Assembly: GCF_044647545.1 (NCBI RefSeq)
Contig: NZ_CP172818.1
DNA length: 64,000 bases
Reading direction: 5' to 3' (one strand)
Source: Escherichia coli
Lineage (GTDB): Bacteria > Pseudomonadota > Gammaproteobacteria > Enterobacterales > Enterobacteriaceae
The translations under genes were made by a program, and so were the position numbers. The notes beneath the pieces are model-generated. The model made no database searches. It had not been told where the DNA came from and was given only the letters and a program-made list of their open reading frames with translations. Of this stretch, positions 12,157-53,732 are shown piece by piece. The first letter of the stretch is position 1. Each line of letters begins with the position of its first letter.

Positions 12157-12165
12157 ATATCGTCC

Positions 12166-14365
<2,200 letters not shown>

Positions 14366-33380: not shown

Positions 33381-33480
33381 TAAATTCCTAAAGTTGTTTT
33401 CTTGCGATTTTGTCTCTCTCTAACCCGCATAAATACTGGTAGCATCAGCATTCAACTGGATAAAATTACAGGGATGCAGA

Positions 33481-36400
33481 ATGAAACACTTTATCTATCA
33501 GGACGAAAAATCACATAAATTCTGGGCGGTGGAGCAGCAGGGAAACGAGTTGCATATCTGTTGGGGAAAAGTTGGCACCAAAGGGCAAAACCAGGTAAAA
33601 AGTTTTGCGGATGCTGCGGCGGCGGAAAAAGCGGAGCTGAAGCTGATTGCGGAGAAGGTGAAGAAGGGATATGTGGAGCAAGCGAAGGATAATTCTTTGC
33701 AACCTTCCCAAACGGTAACGGACTCTCTCAAGGTAGCGGACTTATCCACCATTATTCAGGAACAACCCTCTTTCGTAGCAGAAACCCGTGCGGCTGACAA
33801 AAATACAGACGTTATTTTACCGTGGCTGGCAAAAGATATTGCTGTCGTTTTTCCGCTTGAAGTCGTACCCACCACCTTAAGCCATCGCCGCTTTCCCGGA
33901 GATCCTGTTACACCTGTAGATAAATTAACCCAGTTACGTCGCTTAGCCTGTGGCGTGTCGCAACGGGATAACAAAACAGCTACATTTGACTTCAGCGCCT
34001 GTACTTTAGAGTGGCAAAACTTCATCGCTCAGGCGATCGATCTGATTAACAGCCCGAAAACGACAAAATTACCATCACCGGTAATGGCTGTACTCGCGGC
34101 ACTTGAACTGCACTGTACGAGATATAAAGAGCGTGAGGATGTTATGGATCAGATTATTCAGGAAGGCGGTCTGGAATATGCTACTGATGTAATAATACAT
34201 CTTCAACAAATATCTATTGAATGGGATTATGTCAACAATAATATTGTTTTCCTGTCGTCTGGCATTTCACCTGATTACTTGCAGCAATATTCCAGCTTTG
34301 AATTACGCCTACGTAAACATTTATCACTGGCGGAAGAGTCTCTCTGGCAAAAATGTGCACAAAAACTTATTGCCGCAGTTCCACATATTCCAGAATGGCG
34401 GCAACCATTAATTGCTTTGTTATTACCCGAAAAACCAGAAATTGCACATGAAATTGCCCAGCGTCTACTGGGGCAAAAGAAATTACCCTCGCTTGAGTGG
34501 CTAAAAATAGTGGCGACTGATGAGCACATTCTTGCCTCATTAGAAAAATATCACGAGCCATATGCCATTTTTGATGATTACTATTGTGGTGCGATATGGT
34601 CAGCCACCGTATTACAGGAGCAAGGTGTTGCAGCCCTGCCCCGATTTGCACCCTATGTCGCAAGTGACTACTGCGCCGATGTGTTGAGTCATATCAATCA
34701 TCCGTTCGCATTAACACTGCTTATACGTGTAGCCGGGCATACTAAACGCTGTCACGATCGAATGACGAAAGCCTGCGCTGCGTTCCCACACGCAGCACTG
34801 GCAGCACTGGCGGAACTTCTAGTGCAAAAAGAAGAGAATAGTTGGCGCATTATGCTAATGACGATGCTTATCTCGCAACCTACACTAGCAGAACAGGTCA
34901 TTCCCTGGCTTTCGACACCCGCAGTTGCAGTGCTGAAATCATGCCAGCAACAACTGAAACAGCCCTCAAACCATGCCAGTGCCGATCTACTGCCGGCCAT
35001 AGTAGTCTCCCCACCATGGCTTTCGAAAAAGAAAAAATCGCCGATTCCGGTGCTTGATTTAGCACCGCTCAACCTCGAATCCATATGCACAATAACCGAC
35101 ACAGAAGCTAAAGAGTTTCAAACTCATTGGGACTGGGAACCGCATAAGCCAGGTGAAGGTGCTAAAGATTTCCTTTACTCGCTGGGGTATCGCCGCTGGG
35201 ATTTTGACACATATAAATATATCGGCGCTTCTGACTCGGCAATTGACGCATGGGAACGTGAGGACTTCGCTACACTCATCCAAATGTTTAAAGCCCACCA
35301 TGCACCGTATCAGGGGGAGTGGCATCTCAACTCACTTCCCTTTTTACCTATGCAAAAAGCGATTAAACTATGGGAATTTCTCAGCAAAGAGCCGCATACC
35401 GCGGTAAAACCTGTCATGCTTTATTTGCGACTGGCAGGTATGAGTGGTTTTCTACACTCGTTTTCACGCTACCCTCAAGAAGGTTTTGCGGTTGCTAATT
35501 ATTTTGCCGCAACGGAACTGGCTCCTGCCGTCGCCCGCGCCTTTAACAAACTCAAAACTCTACGACAAGACGCCCGCACCTGGCTGCTGAAATATCCGGA
35601 ACATGCCATTACCGGCCTGTTGCCTGCGGCACTCGGCAAAGCCGGTGAATCCCAGGATAACGCCCGTGCCGCTTTACGTATGTTGATTGAAAATGGTTAT
35701 CCGTCATTACTGCAAGAAATCGCCCAGCGTTATAACCAGCCGGAAGTAACCGATGCGGTGAACGCTCTACTTGCGCTCGATCCCTTAGATAATCACCCGA
35801 CTAAAATCCCGACACTTCCGGCCTTTTATCAGCCATCGCTCTGGACGCGCCCGGTATTAAAAGCAAACGCCCAATCACTGCCAGATAGCGCCCTCTTCCA
35901 CCTCGGTGAAATGCTCCGCTTCCCTCAGGAAGATACGCTGTATCCGGGGTTATTACAGGTGAAAGACGCCTGTACTGCCGACTCACTGGCTGAGTTTGCC
36001 TGGGATCTGTTTACCGCCTGGCAGACCGCTGGCGTGCCGTCGAAAGAGAGCTGGGCGTTCACTGCATTAGGTGTTCTTGGCAACGGTGACACCGCCCGCA
36101 AACTGACGCCATTAATCCGCGCCTGGCCTGGCGAATCTCAGCATAAACGTGCCACCGTTGGGTTGGATATTCTCGCTGCTATCGGCAGCGATATCGCCCT
36201 GATGCAGCTTAACGGCATCGCCCAGAAACTGAAATTCAAAGCCTTACAGGAGCGGGCGAAAGAAAAAATTGCCGACATTGCCGAAAGTCGCGAACTCACA
36301 GTGGCAGAACTTGAAGATCGGTTAGCACCGGATCTCGGTCTGGATGATAACGGTTCGCTGCTGCTGGATTTCGGGCCACGGCAGTTCACCGTCAGCTTTG

Positions 36401-37269
36401 ATGAAACCTTAAAACCGTTTGTGCGTGATGCTTCCGGCAGCCGCCTGAAAGACTTGCCTAAACCGAACAAAAGCGATGATGAAACCCAAGCGAACGATGC
36501 AGTTAACCGCTACAAACTGTTGAAAAAAGATGCGCGTACCGTTGCCGCCCAGCAGGTAGCAAGGCTGGAATCCGCCATGTGCCTACGCCGCCACTGGTCG
36601 CCGGAAAACTTCCAGCTATTCCTGGTTGAGCATCCGCTGGTTCGCCACTTAACCCGCCGTCTGATTTGGGGCGTTTATAGCACCGAAAACGAGCTACTGG
36701 CCTGTTTCCGGGTGGCAGAAGATAACAGCTACAGCACCGCTGACGATGATCTTTTCACCCTGCCGGAAGGCGATATCTCTATTGGTATTCCTCACGTTCT
36801 GGAAATATCACCGACGGATGCCGCCGCCTTTGGTCAGCTTTTTGCCGACTACGAACTTTTACCGCCGTTCCGTCAGCTCGACCGCAACAGTTATGCCCTG
36901 ACTGAAGTCGAACGCAACGCCAGCGAACTAACCCGCTGGGCAGGCAGAAAATGCCCGAGCGGTCGGGTTATGGGGCTGTCGAATAAAGGCTGGGTGCGTG
37001 GTGAACCGCAGGACGGTGGCTGGATCGGCTGGATGATCAAACCTCTGGGCCGCTGGTCATTAATCATGGAAATCGATGAAGGATTTGCAGTTGGTATGTC
37101 GCCAGCCGAACTCAGTGCCGAGCAACTCTTAAGCAAGCTGTGGCTATGGGAAGGCAAAGCAGAAAGCTATGGCTGGGGGAGTCATTCAACACAGGAAGCG
37201 CAGTTCTCCGCACTCGATGACATCACCGCCAGCGAGTTGATTAACGATATTGAAGCCCTGTTTGAATAA
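33481..37269 (+). CDS. molR: Giant WGR-domain + DUF4132 protein MolR (intact form of the K-12 molR/yehG-yehH pseudogene)
   Basis: 1262 aa single ORF; N-terminal WGR-like segment (HKFWAVEQQGNELHICWGKVGTKGQ); remainder collinear with yehI. Confidence 0.85.
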   Translation: MKHFIYQDEKSHKFWAVEQQGNELHICWGKVGTKGQNQVKSFADAAAAEKAELKLIAEKVKKGYVEQAKDNSLQPSQTVTDSLKVADLSTIIQEQPSFVAETRAADKNTDVILPWLAKDIAVVFPLEVVPTTLSHRRFPGDPVTPVDKLTQLRRLACGVSQRDNKTATFDFSACTLEWQNFIAQAIDLINSPKTTKLPSPVMAVLAALELHCTRYKEREDVMDQIIQEGGLEYATDVIIHLQQISIEWDYVNNNIVFLSSGISPDYLQQYSSFELRLRKHLSLAEESLWQKCAQKLIAAVPHIPEWRQPLIALLLPEKPEIAHEIAQRLLGQKKLPSLEWLKIVATDEHILASLEKYHEPYAIFDDYYCGAIWSATVLQEQGVAALPRFAPYVASDYCADVLSHINHPFALTLLIRVAGHTKRCHDRMTKACAAFPHAALAALAELLVQKEENSWRIMLMTMLISQPTLAEQVIPWLSTPAVAVLKSCQQQLKQPSNHASADLLPAIVVSPPWLSKKKKSPIPVLDLAPLNLESICTITDTEAKEFQTHWDWEPHKPGEGAKDFLYSLGYRRWDFDTYKYIGASDSAIDAWEREDFATLIQMFKAHHAPYQGEWHLNSLPFLPMQKAIKLWEFLSKEPHTAVKPVMLYLRLAGMSGFLHSFSRYPQEGFAVANYFAATELAPAVARAFNKLKTLRQDARTWLLKYPEHAITGLLPAALGKAGESQDNARAALRMLIENGYPSLLQEIAQRYNQPEVTDAVNALLALDPLDNHPTKIPTLPAFYQPSLWTRPVLKANAQSLPDSALFHLGEMLRFPQEDTLYPGLLQVKDACTADSLAEFAWDLFTAWQTAGVPSKESWAFTALGVLGNGDTARKLTPLIRAWPGESQHKRATVGLDILAAIGSDIALMQLNGIAQKLKFKALQERAKEKIADIAESRELTVAELEDRLAPDLGLDDNGSLLLDFGPRQFTVSFDETLKPFVRDASGSRLKDLPKPNKSDDETQANDAVNRYKLLKKDARTVAAQQVARLESAMCLRRHWSPENFQLFLVEHPLVRHLTRRLIWGVYSTENELLACFRVAEDNSYSTADDDLFTLPEGDISIGIPHVLEISPTDAAAFGQLFADYELLPPFRQLDRNSYALTEVERNASELTRWAGRKCPSGRVMGLSNKGWVRGEPQDGGWIGWMIKPLGRWSLIMEIDEGFAVGMSPAELSAEQLLSKLWLWEGKAESYGWGSHSTQEAQFSALDDITASELINDIEALFE

Positions 37270-37278
37270 GGAAAGAAC

Positions 37279-40923: not shown

Positions 40924-40983
40924 AACACAGCGGGCAGTGATGCGACTGCCCGTTATTAACACGACCTGCCACCGGGGGAAGCG

Positions 40984-41304
40984 ATGATCGTGCAAAAAGA
41001 GCTGGTCACTATTTACGATTATGAGGCCCCTGTACCTGAAGAGCCGTTTTCCTTCAGACTTGAGATCCATAAATGCTCTGAATTATTTACAGGTTCCATC
41101 TACCGGCTGGAGCGATTCCGGCTACATCCAACATTTCATCAACGTGATCGAGAGGATATCGACCCGCTAATAAATGATGCGTTGATTTATATAAGAGATG
41201 AGTTTATTGATGAGCGAAAATTACGGGGCGAATCACCAGAAACGGTAATAGCCATTTTTAATCGTGAACTACAGAATATATTCAACCAAGAAATAGAAAA
41301 ATAG
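40984..41304 (+). CDS. yehK: Small uncharacterized protein YehK
   Basis: 106 aa; no recognisable domain; AT-rich codon usage unlike neighbours; hairpin terminator immediately downstream (~41309-41336). Confidence 0.7.
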   Translation: MIVQKELVTIYDYEAPVPEEPFSFRLEIHKCSELFTGSIYRLERFRLHPTFHQRDREDIDPLINDALIYIRDEFIDERKLRGESPETVIAIFNRELQNIFNQEIEK

Positions 41305-41469
41305 CTTTATTAAAGGGGGAAACGGTATTCCCCTTTAGATGTGTTTTATTTTCCCGTTACTCAAAAAAATAAATAAACCGAAAAAAAGCCACTAATAGCT
41401 CCAGTACGGAAATAAGCAGGGTTAATTTTTTGTCAGTGTGTCCATCCCTTCTCTTTATAAAGGAGGGCA

Positions 41470-41560
41470 ACACCACTTTTTACCTACCCCCCCCTTTATT
41501 TTTTTTATTCGAACCATTTCCCCCCCGAAGGCCCCCCCCCCCCCCCCCCAACCCTTGAAA
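41470..41560. other. Anomalous low-complexity stretch with poly-C (17 nt), poly-T and C-rich runs; probable sequencing/assembly artefact
   Basis: Direct reading: ...tacctacccccccctttattttttttattcgaaccatttcccccccgaaggcccccccccccccccccaaccc...; same character as the 3856-4550 anomaly. Confidence 0.55.
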
Positions 41561-41704
41561 TGGGTTCGATCCGGCGCAACGTCCCAACAGTCAGGATTAT
41601 AAATCTCATTATCTTAATTGCAACGGGGTCCACCGATGGTTATAATTCGTTCGTTGGAACACGATGTTGCACAGGCCGTGGTGTTAGGCCTGAAAGTAGT
41701 AAAT

Positions 41705-41738
41705 AAAAGAACCTGCCTCACCAGCAGGTTTTTTTATT
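41705..41738 (+). terminator. Rho-independent terminator-like hairpin upstream of yehL
   Basis: AACCTGC-CTCACCA-GCAGGTT followed by T7; ~110 bp upstream of yehL start. Confidence 0.55.
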
Positions 41739-41846
41739 TACTGTGATCTGTTTCCCAGATATTTTCCGCTCAAACAACTAATGCGCCAAACATTTATTGC
41801 GCGTAAAATATCGTTTATTTCATTAATACATTTCAGGGATGAATAT

Positions 41847-42935
41847 ATGTCACCGCAGAATAATCATCTGCAGCGTCCGCCTGTCGCTGTGTTATACGCC
41901 GATGAACTGGCAAAATTAAAACAAAATGATCACGCACCTTGCCCGCCCGGTTGGCAGTTAAGTTTGCCTGCGGCCCGTGCTTTTATCCTTGGCGATAGCG
42001 CGCAAAATATTAGCCGTAAAGTGGTGATTAGTCCCTCCGCTGTCGAACGCATGTTAGTCACTCTTGCCACCGGGCGCGGTTTGATGTTGGTGGGGGAACC
42101 TGGCACCGCAAAATCTCTCCTGTCTGAATTACTGGCAACCGCTATTAGCGGCGATGCCGGGTTAACCATCCAGGGCGGCGCATCTACCACTGAAGATCAA
42201 ATCAAGTACGGCTGGAACTACGCTCTGCTTATCAACCATGGTCCGTCAACGGAAGCACTGGTCCCTGCCCCGCTTTACCAGGGAATGCGCGACGGCAAAA
42301 TCGTCCGTTTTGAAGAGATAACGCGTACACCGCTGGAAGTACAAGACTGTCTGTTAGGTATGCTTTCTGACAGGGTAATGACGGTGCCGGAACTCACTGG
42401 TGAAGCCAGTCAGCTCTATGCGCGAGAAGGCTTTAATATTATTGCCACTGCCAATACCCGCGATCGCGGCGTCAATGAAATGAGCGCTGCGCTAAAGCGT
42501 CGATTCGATTTTGAAACGGTCTTTCCGATTATGGATTTCGCCCAGGAACTGGAACTGGTCGCCAGTGCTTCGGCGCGTTTATTGGCCCATAGTGGCATTC
42601 CGCATAAAGTGCCTGACGCGGTACTGGAGTTACTGGTACGCACCTTCCGCGATCTGCGTGCCAACGGCGAAAAGAAAACGTCAATGGATACACTGACAGC
42701 GATTATGTCCACCGCTGAAGCCGTGAACGTAGCCCACGCTGTGGGTGTCCGCGCCTGGTTTTTAGCGAATCGCGCAGGTGAGCCAGCCGATCTGGTGGAC
42801 TGTATTGCCGGAACCATCGTTAAAGATAACGAAGAAGATCGCGCTCGTCTGCGCCGTTACTTCGAACAGCGTGTCGCCACACATAAAGAAGCTCACTGGC
42901 AGGCTTATTATCAAGCCCGCCACCGCCTGCCGTGA
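41847..42935 (+). CDS. yehL: MoxR-family AAA+ ATPase YehL
   Basis: 362 aa from MSPQNNHLQRPP; Walker A LVGEPGTAKS; Walker B region IVRFEEITRTPLEVQDCLLGML; MoxR-like C-terminal helical region. Confidence 0.88.
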   Translation: MSPQNNHLQRPPVAVLYADELAKLKQNDHAPCPPGWQLSLPAARAFILGDSAQNISRKVVISPSAVERMLVTLATGRGLMLVGEPGTAKSLLSELLATAISGDAGLTIQGGASTTEDQIKYGWNYALLINHGPSTEALVPAPLYQGMRDGKIVRFEEITRTPLEVQDCLLGMLSDRVMTVPELTGEASQLYAREGFNIIATANTRDRGVNEMSAALKRRFDFETVFPIMDFAQELELVASASARLLAHSGIPHKVPDAVLELLVRTFRDLRANGEKKTSMDTLTAIMSTAEAVNVAHAVGVRAWFLANRAGEPADLVDCIAGTIVKDNEEDRARLRRYFEQRVATHKEAHWQAYYQARHRLP

Positions 42936-42945
42936 GGAAAGATGC

Positions 42946-45225
42946 ATGAGCGAGCCGTTAATTGTCGGCATCCGGCATCATAGCCCGGCCTGCGCCCGGC
43001 TGGTGAAATCGTTAATCGAAAGCCAGCGGCCACGATACGTGTTGATTGAAGGCCCGGCTGATTATAATGACCGGGTAGACGAACTGTTTTTAGCCCACCA
43101 GCTTCCGGTAGCTATTTACAGTTATTGCCAGTATCAGGACGGTGCAGCCCCCGGGCGTGGTGCCTGGACGCCATTTGCTGAATTTTCGCCGGAGTGGCAG
43201 GCGCTACAAGCCGCTCGTCGTATTCAGGCACAAACTTACTTCATCGATTTGCCTTGCTGGGCGCAGAGTGAAGAAGAGGACGATTCGCCTGATACGCATG
43301 AGGAAAGCCAGACCTTGCTGCTGCATGCCACCCGCATGGATAACAGCGACACCCTGTGGGATCACTTGTTCGAAGATGAAAGCCAGCAAACTGCATTACC
43401 CTCTGCACTGGCGCACTATTTTGCCCAACTGCGGGGCGACTCCCCCGGAGATGCTCTCAATCGTCAGCGCGAAGCCTTTATGGCCCGCTGGATTGCATGG
43501 GCGATGCAGCAAAATAATGGCGACGTGTTAGTTGTCTGCGGTGGCTGGCACGCTCCGGCACTGGCAAAAATGTGGCGCGAATGCCCGCAAGAAATTAACA
43601 AGCCAGAATTGCCGTCGCTGGCAGATGCCGTTACAGGTTGCTATCTCACGCCATACAGTGAAAAGCGCCTTGATGTGCTGTCAGGATACCTTTCAGGAAT
43701 GCCTGCCCCGGTCTGGCAAAACTGGTGCTGGCGGTGGGGCTTGCAGCAGGCAGGTGAACAACTACTGAAAACGGTTCTTACCCGTTTGCGCCAGCACCAC
43801 TTGCCTGCTTCAACAGCGGATATGGCTGCCGCTCATCTGCATGCGATGGCACTGGCACAGTTGCGCGGTCATACACTACCGTTACGCACTGACTGGCTGG
43901 ATGCTATAGCCGGCTCGCTGATCAAAGAAGCCCTGAACGCGCCGTTGCCGTGGAGCTATCGCGGCGTTATTCATCCCGATACCGATCCGATTCTGCTAAC
44001 GTTGATAGACACATTAGCGGGTGACGGATTCGGTAAACTTGCCCCCTCGACGCCACAGCCACCTCTGCCAAAAGATGTCACCTGCGAACTGGAACGTACC
44101 GGAATCTCTTTTCCGGCGGAGCTTACCTTAAATCGCTTTACCCCCGATGGACTGGCGCAAAGTCAGGTGTTACATCGGCTGGTAATACTGGAGATCCCAG
44201 GGGTTGTGCGCCAGCAGGGAAGTACACTGACACTTGCAGGCAACGGTGAAGAACGCTGGAAATTAACCCGCCCGCTTAGCCAACATGCGGCATTAATTGA
44301 GGCCGCCTGCTTTGGTGCCACACTCCAGGAAGCCGCACGCCATAAATTAGAAGCCGATATGCTGGACGCGGGTGGAATCGGCAGTATCACCACATGTCTT
44401 AGCCAGGCGGCGTTAGCGGGTCTGGCGTCCTTCAGTCAACAATTACTGGAGCAACTTACATTATTAATCGCCCAGGAAAATCAGTTTGCCGAAATGGGCC
44501 AGGCGCTGGAAGTGCTATACGCCTTATGGCGGCTGGATGAAATTAGCGGTATGCAAGGCGCGCAGATATTACAGACGACGTTATGCGCAGCTATCGATCG
44601 CACACTCTGGCTGTGTGAATCCAACGGCAGACCGGATGAAAAGGAGTTTCACGCTCACCTGCATAGCTGGCAAGCGCTTTGCCATATCCTGCGCGATCTA
44701 CATAGCGGCGTTAATTTACCCGGCGTTTCGCTTTCTGCGGCGGTAGCCTTACTGGAGCGCCGCAGTCAGGCGATTCATGCCCCGGCGCTGGATCGCGGCG
44801 CGGCTCTTGGCGCACTAATGCGTCTGGAACATCCCAACGCCAGTGCCGAAGCGGCGCTGACGATGCTGGCGCAGTTATCCCCGGCACAATCCGGCGAGGC
44901 GCTGCACGGTTTGCTGGCATTAGCCCGTCATCAACTGGCCTGTCAGCCGGCATTTATCGCCGGTTTCAGTAGTCATTTAAATCAACTGAGTGACGACGAT
45001 TTTATTAACGCCCTGCCCGATTTACGCGCGGCGATGGCCTGGCTACCACCACGAGAACGCGGGACGCTGGCGCATCAGGTGCTTGAGCATTACCAGCTCG
45101 CACAGCTTCCCATTTCAGCGCTGCAAATGCCGTTGCATTGTCCACCGCAAGCCATTGCACATCATCAACAACTCGAACAGCAGGCACTGGCATCGCTGCA
45201 ACACTGGGGAGTTTTCCATGTCTGA
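42946..45225 (+). CDS. yehM: Large uncharacterized protein YehM
   Basis: 759 aa from MSEPLIVGIRHHSPA (ATG at 42946, 10 bp after yehL stop); no domain I can assign; stop overlaps yehP start. Confidence 0.8.
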   Translation: MSEPLIVGIRHHSPACARLVKSLIESQRPRYVLIEGPADYNDRVDELFLAHQLPVAIYSYCQYQDGAAPGRGAWTPFAEFSPEWQALQAARRIQAQTYFIDLPCWAQSEEEDDSPDTHEESQTLLLHATRMDNSDTLWDHLFEDESQQTALPSALAHYFAQLRGDSPGDALNRQREAFMARWIAWAMQQNNGDVLVVCGGWHAPALAKMWRECPQEINKPELPSLADAVTGCYLTPYSEKRLDVLSGYLSGMPAPVWQNWCWRWGLQQAGEQLLKTVLTRLRQHHLPASTADMAAAHLHAMALAQLRGHTLPLRTDWLDAIAGSLIKEALNAPLPWSYRGVIHPDTDPILLTLIDTLAGDGFGKLAPSTPQPPLPKDVTCELERTGISFPAELTLNRFTPDGLAQSQVLHRLVILEIPGVVRQQGSTLTLAGNGEERWKLTRPLSQHAALIEAACFGATLQEAARHKLEADMLDAGGIGSITTCLSQAALAGLASFSQQLLEQLTLLIAQENQFAEMGQALEVLYALWRLDEISGMQGAQILQTTLCAAIDRTLWLCESNGRPDEKEFHAHLHSWQALCHILRDLHSGVNLPGVSLSAAVALLERRSQAIHAPALDRGAALGALMRLEHPNASAEAALTMLAQLSPAQSGEALHGLLALARHQLACQPAFIAGFSSHLNQLSDDDFINALPDLRAAMAWLPPRERGTLAHQVLEHYQLAQLPISALQMPLHCPPQAIAHHQQLEQQALASLQHWGVFHV

Positions 45226-46354
45226 ACTGAACGATCTTCTGACCACCCGTGAGCTACAACGCTGGCGATTAATTCTTGGCGAAGCGGCAGAAACGACGCT
45301 TTGTGGGCTGGATGACAACGCCCGGCAGATAGACCACGCGCTGGAGTGGCTGTACGGGCGCGATCCTGAACGGCTCCAGCGTGGTGAACGCTCCGGTGGA
45401 TTAGGTGGCTCAAATCTCACCACCCCTGAGTGGATCAACAGTATTCACACGCTGTTTCCGCAACAGGTGATTGAACGGCTGGAAAGCGATGCCGTACTGC
45501 GCTACGGCATTGAAGATGTGGTGACAAATCTCGACGTGCTGGAACGTATGCAGCCTTCGGAAAGCCTGCTACGCGCCGTTTTGCACACCAAACATCTGAT
45601 GAATCCCGAAGTACTGGCTGCCGCCCGCCGGATAGTACGCCAGGTTGTGGAAGAAATTATGGCGCGACTGGCAAAGGAAGTTCGTCAGGCTTTTTCTGGT
45701 GTCCGCGATCGCCGTCGCCGCTCATTTATTCCACTGGCGCGAAACTTTGATTTCAAAAGTACTCTGCGCGCCAACCTGCAACACTGGCACCCGCAACACG
45801 GCAAGTTGTATATCGAATCCCCCCGCTTTAACAGCCGCATTAAACGCCAAAGCGAACAATGGCAACTGGTCTTACTGGTTGATCAAAGCGGATCAATGGT
45901 GGACTCGGTGATCCACTCAGCGGTGATGGCGGCCTGTTTATGGCAGTTACCCGGTATTCGTACCCATCTGGTGGCGTTTGACACCAGCGTGGTTGATCTC
46001 ACGGCAGACGTTGCCGATCCGGTAGAGTTATTAATGAAAGTGCAATTAGGCGGCGGAACCAATATCGCCAGTGCCATGGAATATGGTCGGCAACTTATTG
46101 AACAACCAGCGAAAAGCGTCATCATCCTCGTGAGCGATTTTTACGAAGGGGGTTCATCATCATTACTGACGCATCAGGTGAAAAAGTGTGTCCAGAGCGG
46201 CATCAAAGTGCTGGGACTGGCGGCGCTCGATAGCACCGCAACACCTTGCTATGACCACGATACGGCCCAGGCGCTAGTTAATGTCGGCGCACAAATAGCC
46301 GCCATGACACCGGGCGAGCTGGCGGCCTGGCTTGCGGAGAATCTTCAGTCATGA
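45218..46354 (+). CDS. yehP: von Willebrand factor A (VWA) domain protein YehP
   Basis: 378 aa; C-terminal VWA with MIDAS DxSxS (LVLLVDQSGSM), further ...GGGTN... and ILVSDFYEGG; start ATG overlaps yehM stop (ATGTCTGA). Confidence 0.88.
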   Translation: MSELNDLLTTRELQRWRLILGEAAETTLCGLDDNARQIDHALEWLYGRDPERLQRGERSGGLGGSNLTTPEWINSIHTLFPQQVIERLESDAVLRYGIEDVVTNLDVLERMQPSESLLRAVLHTKHLMNPEVLAAARRIVRQVVEEIMARLAKEVRQAFSGVRDRRRRSFIPLARNFDFKSTLRANLQHWHPQHGKLYIESPRFNSRIKRQSEQWQLVLLVDQSGSMVDSVIHSAVMAACLWQLPGIRTHLVAFDTSVVDLTADVADPVELLMKVQLGGGTNIASAMEYGRQLIEQPAKSVIILVSDFYEGGSSSLLTHQVKKCVQSGIKVLGLAALDSTATPCYDHDTAQALVNVGAQIAAMTPGELAAWLAENLQS

Positions 46355-48351
46355 ATTCACTACGTCCGGAATTATTAGAACTGACGCCGCAGGCCCTGAC
46401 GGCGTTAAGCAATGCCGGTTTTGTTAAACGCAGTCTTAAGGAACTGGAAAATGGCAACGTCCCGGAAATCAGCCATAAGAACGGCGCTTTAATCGCCACC
46501 TTCAGTGACGGTGTCCGTACCCAGCTGGCGAACGGTCAGGCACTGAAAGAGGCTCAATGCAGCTGCGGGGCCAGCGGCATGTGCCGCCATCGCGTGATGC
46601 TGGTTTTAAGTTATCAGCGACTTTGCGCCACCACCCAGCCTACGGAAAAAGAAGAAGAGTGGGATCCGGCAATCTGGCTAGAAGAACTGGCTACCCTTCC
46701 CGATGCCACCCGCAAACGCGCGCAGGCGCTGGTCGCTAAAGGCATCACCATTGAGTTGTTCTGTACGCCGGGCGAAATTCCCTCTGCCCGCTTACCGATG
46801 AGCGATGTACGTTTTTATTCCCGCAGCAGCATTCGTTTCGCACGCTGTGATTGTATTGAAGGAACACTTTGCGAACATGTTGTGCTGGCAGTACAGGCCT
46901 TTGTCCAGGCCAAAGCGCAGCAAGCAGAATTTAACCATTTAATCTGGCAGATGCGCAGCGAACACGTCACATCATCTGACGATCCGTTTGCCAGCGAAGA
47001 GGGCAACGCGTGTCGTCAATATGTTCAGCAACTAAGCCAGGCATTATGGCTGAGCGGCATCAGCCAGCCGCTTATTCATTACGAGGCCGCTTTCAGCCGC
47101 GCGCAGCAAGCGGCGGAACGCTGCAACTGGCGCTGGGTAAGTGAATCACTACGACAGCTACGGGCAAGCGTTGATGCCTTCCACGCCCGCGCCAGTCACT
47201 ATCATGCCGGAGAATGCTTACGTCAGCTTGCGGCATTAAACAGTCGATTAAATTGCGCACAAGAGATGGCGCGGCGCGACAGTGTTGGTGAAGTTCCTCC
47301 TGTGCCGTGGCGCACGGTCGTTGGCGCTGGCATTGCCGGAGAAGCAAAGCTTGATCATCTGCGGCTGGTGTCTTTAGGTATGCGTTGCTGGCAGGATATT
47401 GAGCAGTATGGTTTACGCATCTGGTTCACCGATCCCGACACCGGCAGTATTTTGCATCTTTCGCGTAGTTGGCCGAGAAGCGAACAGGAAAATTCACCGG
47501 CAGCGACGCGTCGGCTGTTTAGTTTTCTGGCTGGCGCACTGGCAGGTGGGCAAATTGTTTCACAAGCAGCAAAACGCAGTGCCGATGGCGAACTGCTATT
47601 AGCTACCCGCAACCGCTTGAGTAGTGTTGTGCCGCTGTCGCCAGACGCCTGGCAAATGTTGAGCGCGCCATTGCGCCAGCCGGGCATTGTGGCTTTGCGG
47701 GAATATTTACGCCAGCGTCCCCCCGCCTGCATACGGCCTCTTAATCAGGTGGATAACTTATTTATTCTGCCAGTCGCTGAGTGTATTTCACTCGGTTGGG
47801 ATAGCAGCCGCCAGACACTGGATGCGCAGGTAATCAGCGGCGAAGGTGAAGATAACGTGCTGACATTATCCCTACCAGCCTCTGCCTGTTCGCCCTTTGC
47901 TGTTGAACGCATGGCGGCGCTTTTGCAACAAACAGACGACCCCGTGAGTCTGGTTTCTGGCTTTGTCAGCTTTGTAGAGGGGCAATTGACACTGGAACCA
48001 CGGGTGATGATGACAAAAAACCGCGCCTGGGCGCTGGACGCAGAAACTGCGCCTGTGGCACCGCTACCTTCTGCCAGCGTTTTGCCTGTGCCGTCTACCG
48101 CTCATCAGTTGCTGATGCGCTGCCAGGCGTTACTTATTCAACTGCTCCATAACGGCTGGCGCTATCAGGAACAGAGTGCTATTGGTCAGGCAGAGTTGCT
48201 GGCGAATGACCTCACCGCGGTGGGTTTTTATCGGCTGGCACATGTGTTGGCACAATTTCGTAATACAGAAAGCGAGGCACGGGTAGAAGCAATGAATAAC
48301 GGTGTTTTGATTTGCGAACAATTATTCCCCATGCTTCAGCAACAAGGATGA
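46351..48351 (+). CDS. yehQ: SWIM zinc-finger domain protein YehQ
   Basis: 666 aa as ORF; two CxC...CxH SWIM-like motifs (CSCGASGMCRHRVM and CDCIEGTLCEHVVLAV); start overlaps yehP stop (ATGA). Confidence 0.85.
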   Translation: MNSLRPELLELTPQALTALSNAGFVKRSLKELENGNVPEISHKNGALIATFSDGVRTQLANGQALKEAQCSCGASGMCRHRVMLVLSYQRLCATTQPTEKEEEWDPAIWLEELATLPDATRKRAQALVAKGITIELFCTPGEIPSARLPMSDVRFYSRSSIRFARCDCIEGTLCEHVVLAVQAFVQAKAQQAEFNHLIWQMRSEHVTSSDDPFASEEGNACRQYVQQLSQALWLSGISQPLIHYEAAFSRAQQAAERCNWRWVSESLRQLRASVDAFHARASHYHAGECLRQLAALNSRLNCAQEMARRDSVGEVPPVPWRTVVGAGIAGEAKLDHLRLVSLGMRCWQDIEQYGLRIWFTDPDTGSILHLSRSWPRSEQENSPAATRRLFSFLAGALAGGQIVSQAAKRSADGELLLATRNRLSSVVPLSPDAWQMLSAPLRQPGIVALREYLRQRPPACIRPLNQVDNLFILPVAECISLGWDSSRQTLDAQVISGEGEDNVLTLSLPASACSPFAVERMAALLQQTDDPVSLVSGFVSFVEGQLTLEPRVMMTKNRAWALDAETAPVAPLPSASVLPVPSTAHQLLMRCQALLIQLLHNGWRYQEQSAIGQAELLANDLTAVGFYRLAHVLAQFRNTESEARVEAMNNGVLICEQLFPMLQQQG

Positions 48352-48977: not shown

Positions 48978-49448
48978 TTAGCTTTTCTTCACATGCTGGC
49001 GCGCTGCCAGTCCACGCAGAAAATAACGTAAAAATTGATCGCCGCATTCGCGGAAGTTTTTATGATCCGGTGCACGCATCATCGCCGTAATTTCCGGCAT
49101 CGAAACGCGGAACTGCTGTTCGGTGAGGATTGCCAGAATGTCATCGGTTTTAAGCGAAAACGCGATGCGTAATTTTTTCAGCACGATGTTGTTATTAATG
49201 CGACGTTCCGGCTCCAGTGCCGGAGCAGACTCATCCTTGCCGCGTTTTTCATAAATCAGGCCATTGAGGAATGACGACAAAACAATGTCCGGACAACGCT
49301 GAAAACCCTCTTCGTCTTCTTTACGTAGCCAGACGGCGATCTGTTCCGCGGTGGCTTCGACATTACCCAGCGCCAGAATACGCACCAGGTCATTATTATT
49401 GGCTTTCAAAATGTAGCGCACGCTGCGCAGAATATCGTTACTTAGCAT
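48978..49448 (-). CDS. yehS: DUF1456 protein YehS
   Basis: 156 aa from MLSNDILRSVRYIL; duplicated DUF1456 module. Confidence 0.82.
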   Translation of the reverse strand: MLSNDILRSVRYILKANNNDLVRILALGNVEATAEQIAVWLRKEDEEGFQRCPDIVLSSFLNGLIYEKRGKDESAPALEPERRINNNIVLKKLRIAFSLKTDDILAILTEQQFRVSMPEITAMMRAPDHKNFRECGDQFLRYFLRGLAARQHVKKS

Positions 49449-49494
49449 GAGGCCTTCAGGTGTTGATGAGGCAAAAAGCCATTTTAGCAGTCTT

Positions 49495-50214
49495 TTACAG
49501 GCCAATCGCCTCTTTTAAGCTTTTCAGATAACGGCGGCTGACCGGCACGGTTAAGCCATTACGCAAAATCAACTCGGCCTGGCCGTTATCTTCCAGACGA
49601 ATCTCCTGTAAATGCGCGAGGTTAACCAGATACTGACGATGGCAGCGCAGTAATGGTGTACGACTTTCCAGGGTACGTAATGTCAGTTCGGTAAAGCCCT
49701 CTTTCCCTTCGTGACTGGTAACGTAGACACCGCTCATCCGACTGCTGACAAATGCCACATCTTTCATTTGCAGCAAATAAATCCGACTATGCCCCGTACA
49801 AGGGATAAATTTCAGCGCCTGTTGATTTTCCGGTAACAGCGAAACATCCTGCTTGCTGCGCTCCTGACGCAATCGCGCCAGCGTTTTCTCCAGTCGCACT
49901 TCATCAATTGGCTTCAGCAGATAATCAAAGGCATGTTCTTCAAAGGCTTTAATGGCGTATTCGTCAAACGCGGTGAGAAAAACAATATACGGGCGATGTT
50001 CCGGGTCGAGCATCCCCACCATTTCCAGACCACTGATGCGCGGCATCTGGATATCGAGAAACAGCACATCCGGGCGCAGTTTATGCACCGCGCCGATCCC
50101 TTCTACGGCGTTTGAACACTCTCCAACGATTTCAATATCGCTCTGCTCCTGCAAAAATACGCGCAGGTTCTCCCGTGCTAACGGTTCATCATCGACAATT
50201 AAGACTTTAATCAT
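49495..50214 (-). CDS. btsR: LytTR-family response regulator BtsR (YehT)
   Basis: 239 aa from [16 protein letters not shown]; receiver plus LytTR DNA-binding domain; start overlaps btsS stop. Confidence 0.92.
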
Positions 50215-51896
50215 GCCTCGTCCCTCCATGGTAGTCGTAACGTTATTCGGGTGTAACTATCAGGCTCACAGGCGACGCTTATCCCATAGTCATCGCCAAA
50301 CCGTTCACGTAAACGCTTATCCACCAGATTCATCCCCAGCCCACTGGCATTGGTTACCGGTTGATACAAACCGGCATTGTCTTCGATCTCCAGCATCAAA
50401 TGTTGCCCCTCACGTCGGGCGCTGATTGCCACTCGCCCTGTATCCAGCAGTTGTGATGTCCCATGTTTAATGGCGTTTTCCACTATCGGTTGCAGGGTAA
50501 ACGCGGGCAATTGCTGCTGGGATAATTCTTGCGGAATAGCAATGTTGACCTGCAACCGCGACTGGAAGCGCGCCTTTTCAATTTGCAGATAAGCGTTCAC
50601 ATGTTCAATTTCGTCGGCGAGAGTAACAAACTCCGAAGGCCGCTTTAAGTTTTTGCGGAAAAAAGTGGAAAGATACTGCACCAGCTGGCTGGCCTGTTCG
50701 CTGTCGCGGCGGATCACCGCTTTAATGGTGTTAAGCGCATTAAACAAAAAATGGGGATTCACCTGGGCGTGAAGCAGTTTGATCTCTGACTGGGTGAGCA
50801 TCGCTTTTTGCCGCTCATATTGCCCGGCGAGGATCTGCGCCGAAAGCAGTTGCGCAATCCCCTCGCCCAGCGTGCGGTTGATTGAACTGAATAAACGGTT
50901 TTTGGCTTCATACAATTTGATGGTACCCATCACTCGCTGATTTTCACCACGCAACGGAATGACCAGCGTCGACCCCAGTTTGCATTGCGGATGCAAAGAG
51001 CAACGGTAAGGCACTTCGTTGCCATCAGCGTAGACCACTTCACCGGTTTCAATCGCTTTTAAGGTATAAGTTGAAGAAATCGGTTTGCCGGGTAAATGGT
51101 GGTCGTCACCAATTCCGGTAAAGGCCAGCAATTTCTCTCGATCGGTAATCGCGACTGCACCAATATCCAGCTCCTGATACAGCACCTGTGCCACTTTCAT
51201 GCTGTTCTCTTCGTTAAACCCCTGGCGCAAAATGCCTTCCGTCGAGGCCGCCACTTTCAGCGCAGTGGCAGAAAAAGCCGAAGTGTATTTTTCAAACATC
51301 GCGCGTTTATCGAGCAATATACGCATAAACAGTGCCGCGCCGACGGTATTGGTGACCATCATTGGCGCAGCAATATTACTCACCAGACGCACCGCATCTT
51401 CATAAGGTCGGGCGATCGCCAGGATGATCAACATTTGCACCATTTCAGCGACGAACGTGACGGCACCGGCGGTAATGGGGTTAAAGACTTTATCAGTGCG
51501 CCCGCGACGGATCAGGATGCTGTGTACCAGGCCGCCGAGCAATCCTTCAACGATGGTCGAGATCATGCAACTTAGCGCGGTCATGCCCCCCATCGAATAT
51601 CGATGTAACCCGCCGGTCAGACCAACCAGCCCACCGACGACCGGACCGCCGAGTAAGCCGCCCATTACCGCGCCTATCGCACGGGTATTGGCAATAGAAT
51701 CGTCAATGTGCAACCCAAACCAGGTGCCCATGATGCAGAAGATGGAAAAGACGATGTAGCAGAGAAATTTATGCGGCAGACGAACCGTGACCTGCATTAG
51801 CGGTATGAATAATGGCGTTTTACTCATTAACCACGCAATGACTAAAAAAACGCACATCTGCTGAAGCAGCAGCAACACCAGATTAAAATCGTACAT
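50211..51896 (-). CDS. btsS: LytS-type sensor histidine kinase BtsS (YehU), pyruvate sensing
   Basis: 561 aa; 5TM-LytS N-terminus, GAF, His kinase core. Confidence 0.92.
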
Positions 51897-52117
51897 ACCC
51901 GCAAACCACACTTCCCTTTAAAACGCGTAACATACATTGCTTGCGTTTAACTTTCTTTGAACTCTTGCAGAAAAATGAGAATTCGTGAGTACGATCACTC
52001 AAAATCGCCTGGCAAAAATAAAATCACCCTATAGATGCACAAAAAACGGGCAAAACTACCTGGTTCGCAAAACTGCGTCTAAAGTTAAACCGGGACCTCG
52101 CGAGCAAGGGTGAGACG

Positions 52118-52849
52118 ATGGCGCTTTACACAATTGGTGAAGTGGCGTTGCTTTGTGATATTAACCCTGTCACGTTACGCGCGTGGCAGAGGCGTTACGG
52201 ATTGCTGAAACCGCAACGGACAGACGGCGGTCATCGGCTGTTCAATGATGCCGATATTGACCGTATCCGCGAGATCAAACGCTGGATCGACAACGGCGTG
52301 CAGGTCAGCAAAGTTAAAATGCTGCTCAGTAATGAAAATGTTGATGTGCAGAACGGCTGGCGCGATCAGCAAGAAACATTACTGACTTACCTGCAAAGCG
52401 GCAATCTGCATAGCCTGCGAACGTGGATCAAAGAGCGCGGTCAGGATTACCCCGCCCAGACACTCACCACGCACCTGTTTATTCCTCTGCGCCGACGACT
52501 TCAGTGCCAACAACCGACTCTCCAGGCGCTGCTGGCGATTCTCGACGGCGTACTGATCAACTACATCGCCATTTGCCTGGCTTCGGCACGTAAAAAACAG
52601 GGTAAAGATGCGCTGGTGGTTGGCTGGAATATTCACGATACCACCCGTCTGTGGCTGGAGGGCTGGATTGCCAGTCAACAAGGATGGCGCATTGATGTCC
52701 TCGCCCACTCGCTCAATCAACTACGCCCTGAACTGTTCGAAGGCCGTACATTGCTGGTGTGGTGCGGTGAAAATCGAACCTCTGCCCAACAGCAGCAACT
52801 CACCAGTTGGCAGGAACAAGGCCATGATATTTTCCCACTCGGCATTTAA
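52118..52849 (+). CDS. mlrA: MerR-family transcriptional regulator MlrA (YehV), curli/csgD activator
   Basis: 243 aa; N-terminal MerR HTH (YTIGEVALLCDINPVTLRAWQRRYGLL). Confidence 0.9.
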   Translation: MALYTIGEVALLCDINPVTLRAWQRRYGLLKPQRTDGGHRLFNDADIDRIREIKRWIDNGVQVSKVKMLLSNENVDVQNGWRDQQETLLTYLQSGNLHSLRTWIKERGQDYPAQTLTTHLFIPLRRRLQCQQPTLQALLAILDGVLINYIAICLASARKKQGKDALVVGWNIHDTTRLWLEGWIASQQGWRIDVLAHSLNQLRPELFEGRTLLVWCGENRTSAQQQQLTSWQEQGHDIFPLGI

Positions 52850-52908
52850 TGATTCGTTAACAAATGCGCTTTACTGTACAATCCTTTCGTTAACATAAGG
52901 AGTGCATT

Positions 52909-53016
52909 ATGCGCATAGCTAAAATTGGGGTCATCGCCCTGTTCCTGTTTATGGCGTTAGGTGGAATTGGTGGCGTCATGCTCGCAGGTTATACCTTTAT
53001 TTTGCGTGCTGGCTAA
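52909..53016 (+). CDS. yohO: Small membrane protein YohO (35 aa)
   Basis: ATG at 52909 with RBS TAAGGAG 8 nt upstream; encodes [35 protein letters not shown]; 3' end overlaps yehW 3' end on opposite strand by 20 bp; not in supplied ORF track (below length cutoff). Confidence 0.75.
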
Positions 53017-53728: not shown

Positions 53729-53732
53729 ACGC

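What the first reader, a model, noticed from the sequence alone, without database searches (positions are those of the whole stretch)
46351..48351. YehQ carries two SWIM-type zinc-finger motifs
CxC-(x)n-CxH signatures occur twice: CSCGASGMCRHRVM (~aa 70-83) and CDCIEGTLCEHVVLAV (~aa 168-183). SWIM domains in bacteria are associated with nucleic-acid or protein interaction, often alongside ATPases. A tandem pair is unusual and may mark YehQ as the target-recognition subunit of the YehLMPQ module.
Basis: seen in the sequence. Interest (0 to 1): 0.45.

Follow-up and report, generated by a model that had tools for sequence, protein, structure and literature searches.

The report
YehQ: double zinc finger, OB-fold adaptor
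The E. coli protein YehQ really does carry two conserved zinc-finger (SWIM) modules, and behind them sits a previously unannotated pair of DNA-binding-type OB folds, which makes it the likely ligand-reading subunit of a widespread but uncharacterised five-protein ATPase machine; the SWIM label itself is already in the databases.

Summary
Observation confirmed. The ORF at 46351-48351 (+) is E. coli yehQ (666 aa). Chance is excluded: two such motifs arose in 25 of 200,000 shuffles. Pfam SWIM scores 32.3 bits for the protein; alone, motif 1 passes the cut-off and motif 2 does not (15.8 vs 19.6). Both ligand sets are conserved across about 20 genera, and the two ~95-aa modules are homologous (HHalign E 4.6e-9), so this is a duplicated SWIM module. 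A subclade including Streptomyces has lost the second ligand set.

RefSeq already names YehQ 'SWIM zinc finger family protein', so that part is not new. New here:
- A high-confidence model (pLDDT 93.6) shows 2xSWIM, helical bundle, tandem OB fold (RPA70/HIN-like), helical bundle.
- yehQ is the last gene of a five-gene cassette found in Proteobacteria, Myxococcota and Actinobacteria: WGR-DUF4132 (MolR/YehI), MoxR AAA+ (YehL), DUF5682 (YehM), CoxE-type vWA (YehP), YehQ.

Best reading: YehQ is the ligand-binding adaptor. The OB pair is the probable nucleic-acid reader and the SWIM modules are zinc-stabilised docking surfaces. Function remains untested.

The parts
46351..48351 (+). yehQ coding sequence (666 aa plus stop). 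Its ATG overlaps the yehP stop codon by 4 nt (ATGA).
   Evidence: 100% identical to E. coli FDAARGOS_497 yehQ. dN/dS against K-12 is 0.018/0.209.
46351..46644 (+). SWIM module 1 (aa 1-98): N-terminal helices, three beta strands, then CxC and a CxH helix. Ligands are C70, C72, C78 and H80 (nt 46558-46590).
   Evidence: Pfam SWIM 23.3 bits alone. The four ligands are invariant in alignment A1 of 111 sequences. AF2 secondary structure with pLDDT 95-98.
46645..46935 (+). SWIM module 2 (aa 99-195), a duplicate of module 1. Ligands are C166, C168, C174 and H176 (nt 46846-46878).
   Evidence: Pfam SWIM 15.8 bits alone, sub-threshold. HHalign of module 1 against module 2 gives probability 96%, E 4.6e-9, 87 columns. 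Ligands kept in about 89% of representatives.
46984..47286 (+). Helical bundle 1 (aa 212-312), with invariant G236 and R299.
47323..48045 (+). Tandem OB-fold core (aa ~325-565): OB1 at about 330-445 and OB2 at about 470-561. It carries the conserved R409 ('RRAN' motif), Q488 and G537.
48082..48348 (+). C-terminal helical bundle (aa 578-666). K-12 truncates it at E615*.
   Evidence: AF2 helices 583-665. K-12 comparison.
45218..46354 (+). yehP: CoxE-type vWA protein, always immediately upstream of yehQ.
   Evidence: Pfam VWA_CoxE 241 bits. The YehP match ends within 120 nt of the YehQ match start in 77 of 79 loci. One vWA-YehQ fusion protein, P0062.
42946..45225 (+). yehM: DUF5682 protein.
   Evidence: Pfam DUF5682 332.7 bits. 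Fused to the vWA protein in L005/L006.
41847..42935 (+). yehL: MoxR-type AAA+ ATPase and name-giving member of the YehL subfamily.
   Evidence: Pfam AAA_5 119 bits. Subfamily named in PMC3893208.
37279..40923 (+). yehI: DUF4132 protein, a paralogue of MolR without a WGR hit.
   Evidence: Pfam DUF4132 161.5 bits.
33481..37269 (+). molR, intact here (1262 aa): WGR (aa 7-69) plus DUF4132. It is the version of the fifth component found in other phyla.
   Evidence: Pfam WGR 62.4 bits and DUF4132 171.2 bits. MolR-like proteins in 47 loci align from residue 1. Frameshifted in K-12.
33456..33471 (+). LexA (SOS) box-like site CTGGATAAAATTACAG, ending 10 nt upstream of the molR ATG.
   Evidence: molR is listed among genes with a known SOS box in review PMC6590174.

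Best explanation
YehQ is the zinc-containing, ligand-binding adaptor subunit of a conserved five-protein MoxR-AAA+/vWA machine made of MolR/YehI, YehL, YehM, YehP and YehQ.

Shown:
- Its N-terminus is a tandem duplication of a ~95-residue SWIM module. Each copy carries a CxC-x5-CxH set, predicted to hold one structural zinc.
- Behind the modules lie a helical bundle, a tandem OB-fold pair and a second helical bundle.
- The gene is translationally coupled to the vWA gene yehP and co-inherited with all four partners across phyla.

Inferred mechanism:
- The OB pair binds the system's ligand, most likely single- or double-stranded nucleic acid.
- The two SWIM modules are rigid, zinc-stabilised docking surfaces that tie YehQ to its partners. 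The vWA/MIDAS protein YehP is the prime candidate.
- The YehL hexamer would then apply ATP-driven remodelling to whatever YehQ, and the WGR domain of MolR, have bound.
- The SOS box on molR and the DNA-damage induction of DUF4132 and WGR proteins in Deinococcus point to a DNA-damage-related substrate. This last step is the least secure.
For: SWIM identity and conservation:
- The motifs exist and are non-random.
- Pfam SWIM scores above the cut-off. 21 of 25 diverse members hit SWIM and no other Pfam family is shared.
- C70, C72, C78 and H80 are invariant. C166, C168, C174 and H176 are at least 90% conserved in alignment A1 (about 89% across all 125 rows). 77 of 80 genome loci keep both sets.
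- The two modules are homologous to each other.

Structure:
- The AF2 model has pLDDT 93.6 and pTM 0.91. It places CxC at the end of a beta strand and CxH at a helix N-terminus in both modules.

Genomic context:
- All five genes are present in 69 of 80 loci, spanning Gamma-, Beta-, Alpha- and Deltaproteobacteria, Myxococcota and Actinobacteria.
- yehP and yehQ are adjacent or overlapping.
- Fusions vWA-YehQ and DUF5682-vWA exist.
- yehQ is under purifying selection, dN/dS 0.09.

Precedents and DNA-damage link:
- In the Shu complex, the SWIM domain of Shu2 is a zinc-dependent protein interface with an ATPase-fold partner (PMC5727457).
- MoxR ATPases work with vWA cofactors as remodelers (PMC3893208).
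- molR is in the LexA regulon (PMC6590174) and its box is present here.
- The Deinococcus DUF4132 and WGR proteins are induced by mitomycin C through DdrO/IrrE.
Against: - No experiment bears on YehQ. Zinc binding, DNA binding and any contact with YehP are all untested.
- The second SWIM ligand set is lost in a subclade including Streptomyces, Kibdelosporangium and a deltaproteobacterial MAG, so that zinc site is not universally required.
- The LexA-like box is found only in Escherichia and Intestinirhabdus, not in 45 other loci scanned for the gamma/beta-type box.
- yehLMPQ is separated from molR-yehI-yehK by a toxin-antitoxin locus and an H-NS-bound region, so co-regulation with molR is unproven.
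- The one vWA-YehQ fusion could be a gene-calling artefact of the 4-nt overlap.
Confidence: 0.45

Rival explanations
1. One reading: the two SWIM fingers themselves are the nucleic-acid-recognising elements of YehQ, and the rest of the protein is scaffold.
For: SWIM was originally predicted to have DNA-binding as well as protein-binding roles (as cited in PMC5727457). Module 1 carries nearly invariant basic residues next to the ligands: R5, K26, R27, K30, R79 and R81.
Confidence: 0.2
2. YehLMPQ is a metal-cofactor or metalloenzyme maturation chaperone like CoxD/CoxE, NorQ/NorD or CbbQ/CbbO. On this view the Cys/His sites of YehQ handle or deliver a metal rather than being structural.
For: YehP is a strong match to the CoxE-type vWA family, 241 bits. 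YehL is a MoxR AAA+, and that family's characterised members mature metalloenzyme complexes (PMC3893208). The neighbour molR is historically named 'molybdate metabolism regulator'. One metagenomic locus has a xanthine-dehydrogenase-type gene directly downstream.
Against: No molybdoenzyme or other candidate client is syntenic in 80 genome loci: tblastn with the xanthine-dehydrogenase-type (XDH-like) protein found one weak ferredoxin-domain hit. No sixth conserved neighbour exists. CxCx5CxH in a beta-beta-alpha unit matching the SWIM profile is the signature of a structural zinc site. OB and WGR domains are not features of the known maturation systems.
Confidence: 0.12
3. The cassette is an anti-phage or conflict system of the NTP-dependent vWA-MoxR type, with YehQ sensing invader nucleic acid.
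For: vWA-MoxR ternary systems are recognised conflict systems (mentioned in PMC10910872). The yehL promoter region is H-NS-silenced. The cluster is unusually divergent between E. coli strains, 90-97% against 98-99% in the flanks. K-12 carries inactivating mutations in molR and yehQ. A type I toxin-antitoxin locus is embedded in the cluster.
Against: No PADLOC model matches any of the six proteins. The bpMoxR hit is far below threshold, 18.4 against 27 bits. The locus is at a fixed position in 5,361 of 5,426 complete E. coli genomes. It is rare on plasmids and absent from phages. Flanks in other taxa are housekeeping genes. No recognisable effector domain is present. dN/dS is low.
Confidence: 0.15
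4. The motifs are chance Cys/His patterns with no zinc site.
For: The second motif alone is below the Pfam gathering score.
Against: See the shuffle test. The ligands are invariant or nearly so over sequences that are only 27-48% identical. The two modules show profile-profile homology. The AF2 model is confident in both regions.
Confidence: 0.02

Closest known systems
SWIM zinc-finger domain (Pfam PF04434), as in Shu2/SWS1, ZSWIM8, MEKK1, FAR1/MuDR transposases and bacterial SNF2-associated proteins
   Same: It has the CxC-xn-CxH signature and a profile match above the cut-off. The topology is beta strands followed by a helix that carries CxH. It occurs in a protein that works beside an ATPase.
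   Different: There are two modules in tandem, arising from a ~95-aa duplication. The spacer is n = 5, against a typical 6-16 (PMC5727457). The partner is a MoxR AAA+/vWA pair rather than SNF2, Rad51 paralogues or a cullin. The second site is degenerate in some lineages.
Tandem OB-fold DNA binders: RPA70 DBD-A/B, HIN-200 domains (AIM2, p202, p204), baculovirus LEF-3, Teb1/POT1
   Different: Sequence identity is 7-13% and no sequence-level relationship is detectable. Nucleic-acid binding is not shown. The pair is flanked by helical bundles and SWIM modules, an architecture not seen in those proteins.
MoxR AAA+ / vWA chaperone pairs: RavA-ViaA, CoxD-CoxE, NorQ-NorD, CbbQ-CbbO (YehL is one of the seven MoxR subfamilies)
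   Same: An AAA_5 ATPase is encoded next to a MIDAS-type vWA protein. YehP belongs to the CoxE vWA family.
   Different: There are three extra obligatory partners (DUF5682, WGR-DUF4132, SWIM/OB YehQ). No client enzyme is syntenic. The function is unknown.
vWA-MoxR-VMAP ternary conflict systems
   Same: It is a three-or-more-component NTPase system built around MoxR and vWA.
   Different: There is no VMAP or effector-associated domain, no PADLOC hit, and only a sub-threshold bpMoxR match. The locus is chromosomally fixed.
WGR-domain DNA-break sensors (PARP1-3) and DNA-damage-induced WGR/DUF4132 proteins of Deinococcus (DR2173, DRA0166)
   Same: The partner protein MolR has an N-terminal WGR domain plus DUF4132. 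molR has an SOS box. The Deinococcus proteins are induced by DNA damage.
   Different: There is no catalytic PARP domain. It is not known whether Deinococcus has the YehLMPQ part. The SOS box is confined to enterobacteria.

Membership tests
SWIM zinc finger (PF04434) | CxC-xn-CxH ligand signature | tested here: met
   Present twice, at aa 70-80 and aa 166-176, both with n = 5.
SWIM zinc finger (PF04434) | Profile HMM score at or above the gathering cut-off (19.6 bits) | tested here: met
   Whole protein 32.3 bits and module 1 alone 23.3 bits. Module 2 alone scores 15.8 bits, which is below the cut-off. Module 2 is instead linked to module 1 by HHalign at E 4.6e-9.
SWIM zinc finger (PF04434) | Ligands conserved in orthologues | tested here: met
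   Motif 1 is conserved in 123 of 125 rows and motif 2 in 111 of 125. Both are present in 77 of 80 genome loci. A subclade lacks set 2.
SWIM zinc finger (PF04434) | Beta strands followed by an alpha helix, with CxH at the helix N-terminus | tested here: met
SWIM zinc finger (PF04434) | Binds zinc | not testable with these tools
   This needs metal analysis of purified protein.
OB fold (nucleic-acid-binding type, tandem pair) | Five-stranded beta-barrel fold superposable on known OB domains | tested here: met
OB fold (nucleic-acid-binding type, tandem pair) | Binds ssDNA, dsDNA or RNA | not testable with these tools
   This is only inferred from the nature of the structural neighbours.
MoxR AAA+ / vWA system, YehL subfamily | MoxR-type AAA_5 ATPase encoded beside a vWA protein | tested here: met
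   YehL scores 119 bits for AAA_5 and YehP 241 bits for VWA_CoxE. The arrangement is conserved in 69 of 80 loci. The subfamily is named in PMC3893208.
vWA-MoxR-VMAP conflict systems / known defence systems | Match to bpMoxR/VMAP or to any PADLOC defence model | tested here: not met
   bpMoxR scores 18.4 bits against a cut-off of 27. PADLOC gives no hit for any of the six proteins.
CoxD/CoxE-type metalloenzyme maturation system | Synteny with a client metalloenzyme such as a molybdo-hydroxylase | tested here: not met
   A tblastn search with an XDH-type protein against 80 loci found one weak ferredoxin-domain hit. No further conserved neighbour was found.

The most novel reading that the evidence does not exclude
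MolR/YehI-YehLMPQ is a previously unrecognised, phylum-spanning DNA-lesion or DNA-structure-responsive AAA+ remodelling machine. YehQ would read DNA through an RPA/HIN-like tandem OB pair and MolR through its PARP-like WGR domain. The zinc-stabilised double-SWIM platform would hand the bound substrate, via the YehP MIDAS, to the YehL motor. This would be a bacterial counterpart of eukaryotic AAA+/vWA extraction systems acting on DNA-bound proteins. It would have been missed because E. coli K-12 carries broken molR and yehQ alleles.
Probability: 0.2. Interest if true: 0.75.

Novelty: new variant of a known kind. Interest (0 to 1): 0.4.

Why it matters
- YehL is one of only two MoxR ATPases in E. 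coli (PMC3893208), and its system has no known function.
- YehQ combines a duplicated zinc-finger platform with an RPA/HIN-like OB pair. It always travels with a WGR-DUF4132 protein, one copy of which is SOS-regulated. Together these turn a 'y-gene' operon into a testable hypothesis: a DNA-linked AAA+ remodeler.
- E. coli K-12 has a frameshifted molR and a truncated yehQ. Negative results from K-12 knockout collections therefore say little, and experiments should use strains like this one with intact genes.
- The bare statement 'YehQ has SWIM fingers' is already in public annotation and is of low novelty on its own.

Tried and rejected
- **NCBIfam:** no model matches YehQ.
- **PADLOC:** no defence model matches any cluster protein.
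- **PDB sequence searches:** single-sequence and profile searches found no solved relative for YehQ, YehM or YehP. MolR matches only through its WGR domain.
- **Literature:** searches for yehQ, yehL/M/P, DUF5682, DUF4132 and SWIM+MoxR+vWA found no functional study.
- **Genome scan:** the 111-sequence alignment was too diverse. A 25-sequence alignment worked but used a single peptide pattern, so the 80 loci are a biased sample.
- **N-terminal 200 aa search:** searching the 5.8-billion-protein database returned only fragments of enterobacterial YehQ. It said nothing about other tandem-SWIM families.
- **SOS regulation as a family-wide feature:** rejected. A CTGT-N8-ACAG-like box upstream of the MolR-like gene occurs only in Intestinirhabdus (the window's own box at 33456-33471 came from the window scan); two others are distant and probably chance, and 44 of the 47 scanned loci have none. 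Lineage-specific LexA motifs were not tried.
- **Molybdoenzyme client:** not supported by synteny.
- **Sixth conserved gene or effector:** none found. The only recurrent downstream gene is a sigma factor confined to Xanthomonadales-type loci.
- **Remote Pfam relatives of DUF5682:** none.
- **OB1 versus OB2 sequence similarity:** none, HHalign probability 1%.
- **Zinc-site geometry in the model:** could not be measured because coordinates are not exposed.
Full report
**1. The observation**

The ORF at window 46351-48351 (+) encodes a 666-aa protein. Its DNA is 100% identical to yehQ of E. coli FDAARGOS_497. Matches occur in 5,361 of 5,426 complete E. coli genomes, where RefSeq already names it 'SWIM zinc finger family protein'.

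A regex scan finds exactly two CxC-x5-CxH signatures:
- CSCGASGMCRH at aa 70-80 (nt 46558-46590).
- CDCIEGTLCEH at aa 166-176 (nt 46846-46878).

Chance does not explain this. Among 200,000 shuffles of the protein, at least two such motifs arose 25 times, and two with the same x5 spacing never arose. No other ORF of 100 aa or more in the window has two.

Pfam SWIM (PF04434) scores 32.3 bits for the protein against a cut-off of 19.6, in two stretches. Scanned separately, the first module passes at 23.3 bits. The second does not, at 15.8 bits and E 0.0099. No NCBIfam model matches.

**2. Conservation and origin of the pair**

An exhaustive HMMER search of 1.84 billion cluster representatives found 860 relatives at E <= 1e-3 and 274 at E <= 1e-30. 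Most are full-length and 27-48% identical.

- In 124 full-length representatives, the first ligand set is CCCH in 123 of 125 rows and the second in 111 of 125.
- In the 111-sequence alignment A1, C70, C72, C78 and H80 are among only nine invariant columns. C166, C168, C174 and H176 are at least 90% conserved.
- 21 of 25 diverse members hit Pfam SWIM, and no other Pfam family is shared.
- In 80 genome loci from about 40 taxa, both motifs with identical x5 spacing are present in 77.
- A subclade has replaced the second ligand set while keeping the surrounding sequence pattern. It includes Streptomyces, Kibdelosporangium and a deltaproteobacterial MAG.
- Profile-profile comparison of aa 1-98 with aa 99-195 gives probability 96% and E 4.6e-9 over 87 columns.

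The pair is therefore a tandem duplication of a whole ~95-residue module: helices, three strands, CxC, then a CxH helix. It is not two independent short motifs. The first site looks indispensable. The second is dispensable in some lineages.

**3. The rest of the protein**

An AlphaFold2 model built on A1 is confident throughout, with mean pLDDT 93.6 and pTM 0.91. It gives this architecture:
- SWIM module 1 (aa 1-98).
- SWIM module 2 (aa 99-195).
- Helical bundle (aa 212-312).
- A beta-rich core of two barrels (aa ~325-565).
- C-terminal helical bundle (aa 578-666).

Foldseek against the PDB ranks tandem-OB DNA binders first. RPA70 DBD-A/B (1jmc) is at E 8.9e-4, followed by the HIN domains of p202, AIM2 and MNDA, baculovirus LEF-3, POT1 and CST.

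**4. Genomic context**

In the window the order is:
- metG
- molR (33481-37269; intact, 1262 aa, WGR plus DUF4132)
- yehI (DUF4132)
- yehK
- an intergenic region
- yehL (AAA_5, MoxR type)
- yehM (DUF5682)
- yehP (VWA_CoxE)
- yehQ

. The yehP stop and the yehQ start overlap as ATGA.

A scan of one genome per species returned 80 loci. They come from Escherichia, Klebsiella, Serratia, Thorsellia, Iodobacter, Massilia, Variovorax, Acidovorax, Burkholderia, Lysobacter, Stenotrophomonas, Trichlorobacter, the myxobacterium Citreicoccus, Methylobacterium, Mycobacterium and Kibdelosporangium.

- tblastn with the window's proteins finds all five components on one strand in 69 of 80 loci: MolR-like DUF4132, YehL, YehM, YehP and YehQ. 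The shortfalls are explained by contig ends or by genes beyond the flank, apart from one locus.
- The YehP match ends within 120 nt of the YehQ match start in 77 of 79 loci.
- Gene order varies for the DUF4132 gene. It is downstream in Burkholderia and between yehM and yehP in Alphaproteobacteria.
- The MolR-like protein aligns from residue 1, so it carries WGR, in all 47 loci examined.
- yehK and the second DUF4132 paralogue are enterobacterial additions.
- Metagenomic examples add a DUF5682-vWA fusion, an ankyrin-containing DUF4132 protein and an adjacent ligase-WGR gene. There is also one vWA-YehQ fusion.
- No sixth conserved gene or recognisable effector exists.
- The system is rare on plasmids and absent from phages. 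The one phage record with a full-length match (VT1-Sakai) also annotates yehP and yehV, which I take to be host flanking sequence; a second record has only a 12% fragment.
- No PADLOC defence model matches.

**5. What is known**

YehL gives its name to one of seven MoxR AAA+ subfamilies. MoxR proteins act with vWA cofactors as chaperone-like remodelers (PMC3893208).

yehL and yehM are derepressed in hns/stpA mutants (PMC3686432).

molR is listed among E. coli genes with a known SOS box (PMC6590174). The box-like site CTGGATAAAATTACAG ends 10 nt upstream of the intact molR start here.

In Deinococcus, a DUF4132 protein (DRA0166) and a WGR protein (DR2173) are induced by mitomycin C through DdrO/IrrE.

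The solved Shu complex shows a SWIM domain acting as a zinc-dependent protein-protein interface with an ATPase-fold partner. That paper gives n = 6-16 as the typical spacer (PMC5727457), whereas YehQ has n = 5.

I found no paper on YehQ function.

**6. Interpretation**

*Shown:* a conserved, duplicated SWIM module; a tandem OB-fold core; strict co-inheritance with a MoxR ATPase, a CoxE-type vWA protein, DUF5682 and WGR-DUF4132; and purifying selection, with dN/dS 0.09 against K-12.

*Inferred:* YehQ is the ligand-binding adaptor of the machine. The OB pair is the probable nucleic-acid reader. The SWIM modules are zinc-stabilised docking surfaces, most likely toward YehP and its MIDAS site. YehL supplies ATP-driven remodelling. 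The WGR domain, the SOS box and the Deinococcus data suggest a DNA-damage-related substrate.

The claim that the SWIM pair is the recognition element is weaker.

*Rivals:*
- SWIM as the direct nucleic-acid reader (0.2).
- A conflict or defence system (0.15). The elevated inter-strain divergence, H-NS silencing and K-12 decay hint at it. The fixed locus, the absent PADLOC hits and the lack of an effector argue against it.
- A CoxD/E-like metal-cofactor maturation system (0.12). There is no syntenic client.
- Chance (0.02).

**7. Caveats**

- SOS-box conservation is limited to enterobacteria.
- yehLMPQ is separated from molR-yehI-yehK by a type I toxin-antitoxin locus and is probably a separate transcription unit.
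- The 80 loci were recovered with one peptide pattern from motif 1, so motif-1 conservation in that set is partly circular. The independent HMMER set does not have this bias.
- Zinc geometry could not be measured in the model.
- Whether tandem SWIM is unusual among all SWIM proteins was not tested.

**8. Verdict**

The added value is threefold: the second, sub-threshold module is a true duplicate; the tandem OB core is unannotated; and the unit is a five-gene cassette.

K-12 carries a frameshifted molR and yehQ E615*, which removes most of the C-terminal bundle. K-12-based phenotyping is therefore likely uninformative.

I rate this as a new variant of a known kind, namely a MoxR-vWA system with an unusual accessory set. 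Interest is 0.4.

Noticed in passing
window 41596-41743 (yehK-yehL intergenic): An OrzO/OrzP antitoxin sRNA (Rfam RF02083, 98.9 bits against a cut-off of 60) lies at 41660-41735 (+). It has its own sigma-70-like promoter (41618-41646) and a terminator (41697-41743). A divergent promoter sits on the minus strand. This is a zor-orz type I toxin-antitoxin locus embedded between yehK and yehL. In strain FDAARGOS_497 the 29-aa toxin ORF MDTLTQKLTVLIAVLELLVALLRLIDLLK is intact on the minus strand.
   Followed up: partly
window 41336-41555: This ~220-bp stretch is a degraded copy of the sequence in FDAARGOS_497, a strain whose yehQ and adjacent intergenic sequence are otherwise identical to the window. 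It shows many substitutions toward A, T and C homopolymers and a run of about 22 C. The Zor toxin ORF is corrupted here. It looks like a sequence-quality artefact in the source assembly rather than biology. K-12 lacks the ~240 bp altogether.
   Followed up: partly
window ~34000-48000 versus 49000-55000: The molR-yehQ cluster is only 90-97% identical in nucleotides to K-12. The middle of yehQ is about 92.6% identical. The adjacent yehS-btsSR-mlrA genes are 98-99% identical. For yehQ, dS is 0.21 with dN/dS 0.09. Only 63 of 5,363 E. coli records are 99% or more identical to this yehQ allele. The locus is a local hot-spot of old allelic divergence or recombination.
   Followed up: partly
L001 (E. 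coli K-12 BW25113) 1-3170 and 12001-14001; window 33481-37269 and 46351-48351: K-12 carries a frameshifted molR with an internal stop, and a yehQ nonsense codon (E615*) that removes the last 52 residues. Both genes are intact in the window strain. K-12 knockout phenotypes for this system are therefore suspect.
   Followed up: yes
window 33456-33471: A LexA-box-like site, CTGGATAAAATTACAG, has one mismatch to CTGT-N8-ACAG and ends 10 nt upstream of the molR start. An equivalent site lies at -24 in Intestinirhabdus (L014). Nothing comparable was found upstream of the MolR-like gene in 45 other loci.
   Followed up: yes
L005 1-1401 and L005/L006 6678-10001: In a metagenomic relative the cassette is preceded by a NAD-ligase-like gene ending in a WGR domain. 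DUF5682 and the CoxE-type vWA domain are fused into one 1107-aa protein, and the DUF4132 protein carries ankyrin repeats.
   Followed up: no
plasmid hit H21 (NZ_CP114132.1, E. coli, pig gut): In this record yehQ is interrupted by an IS3-like IS1203 element. Many short YehQ N-terminal fragments (about 110-300 aa) exist in E. coli and Shigella assemblies, which suggests recurrent inactivation in some lineages.
   Followed up: no
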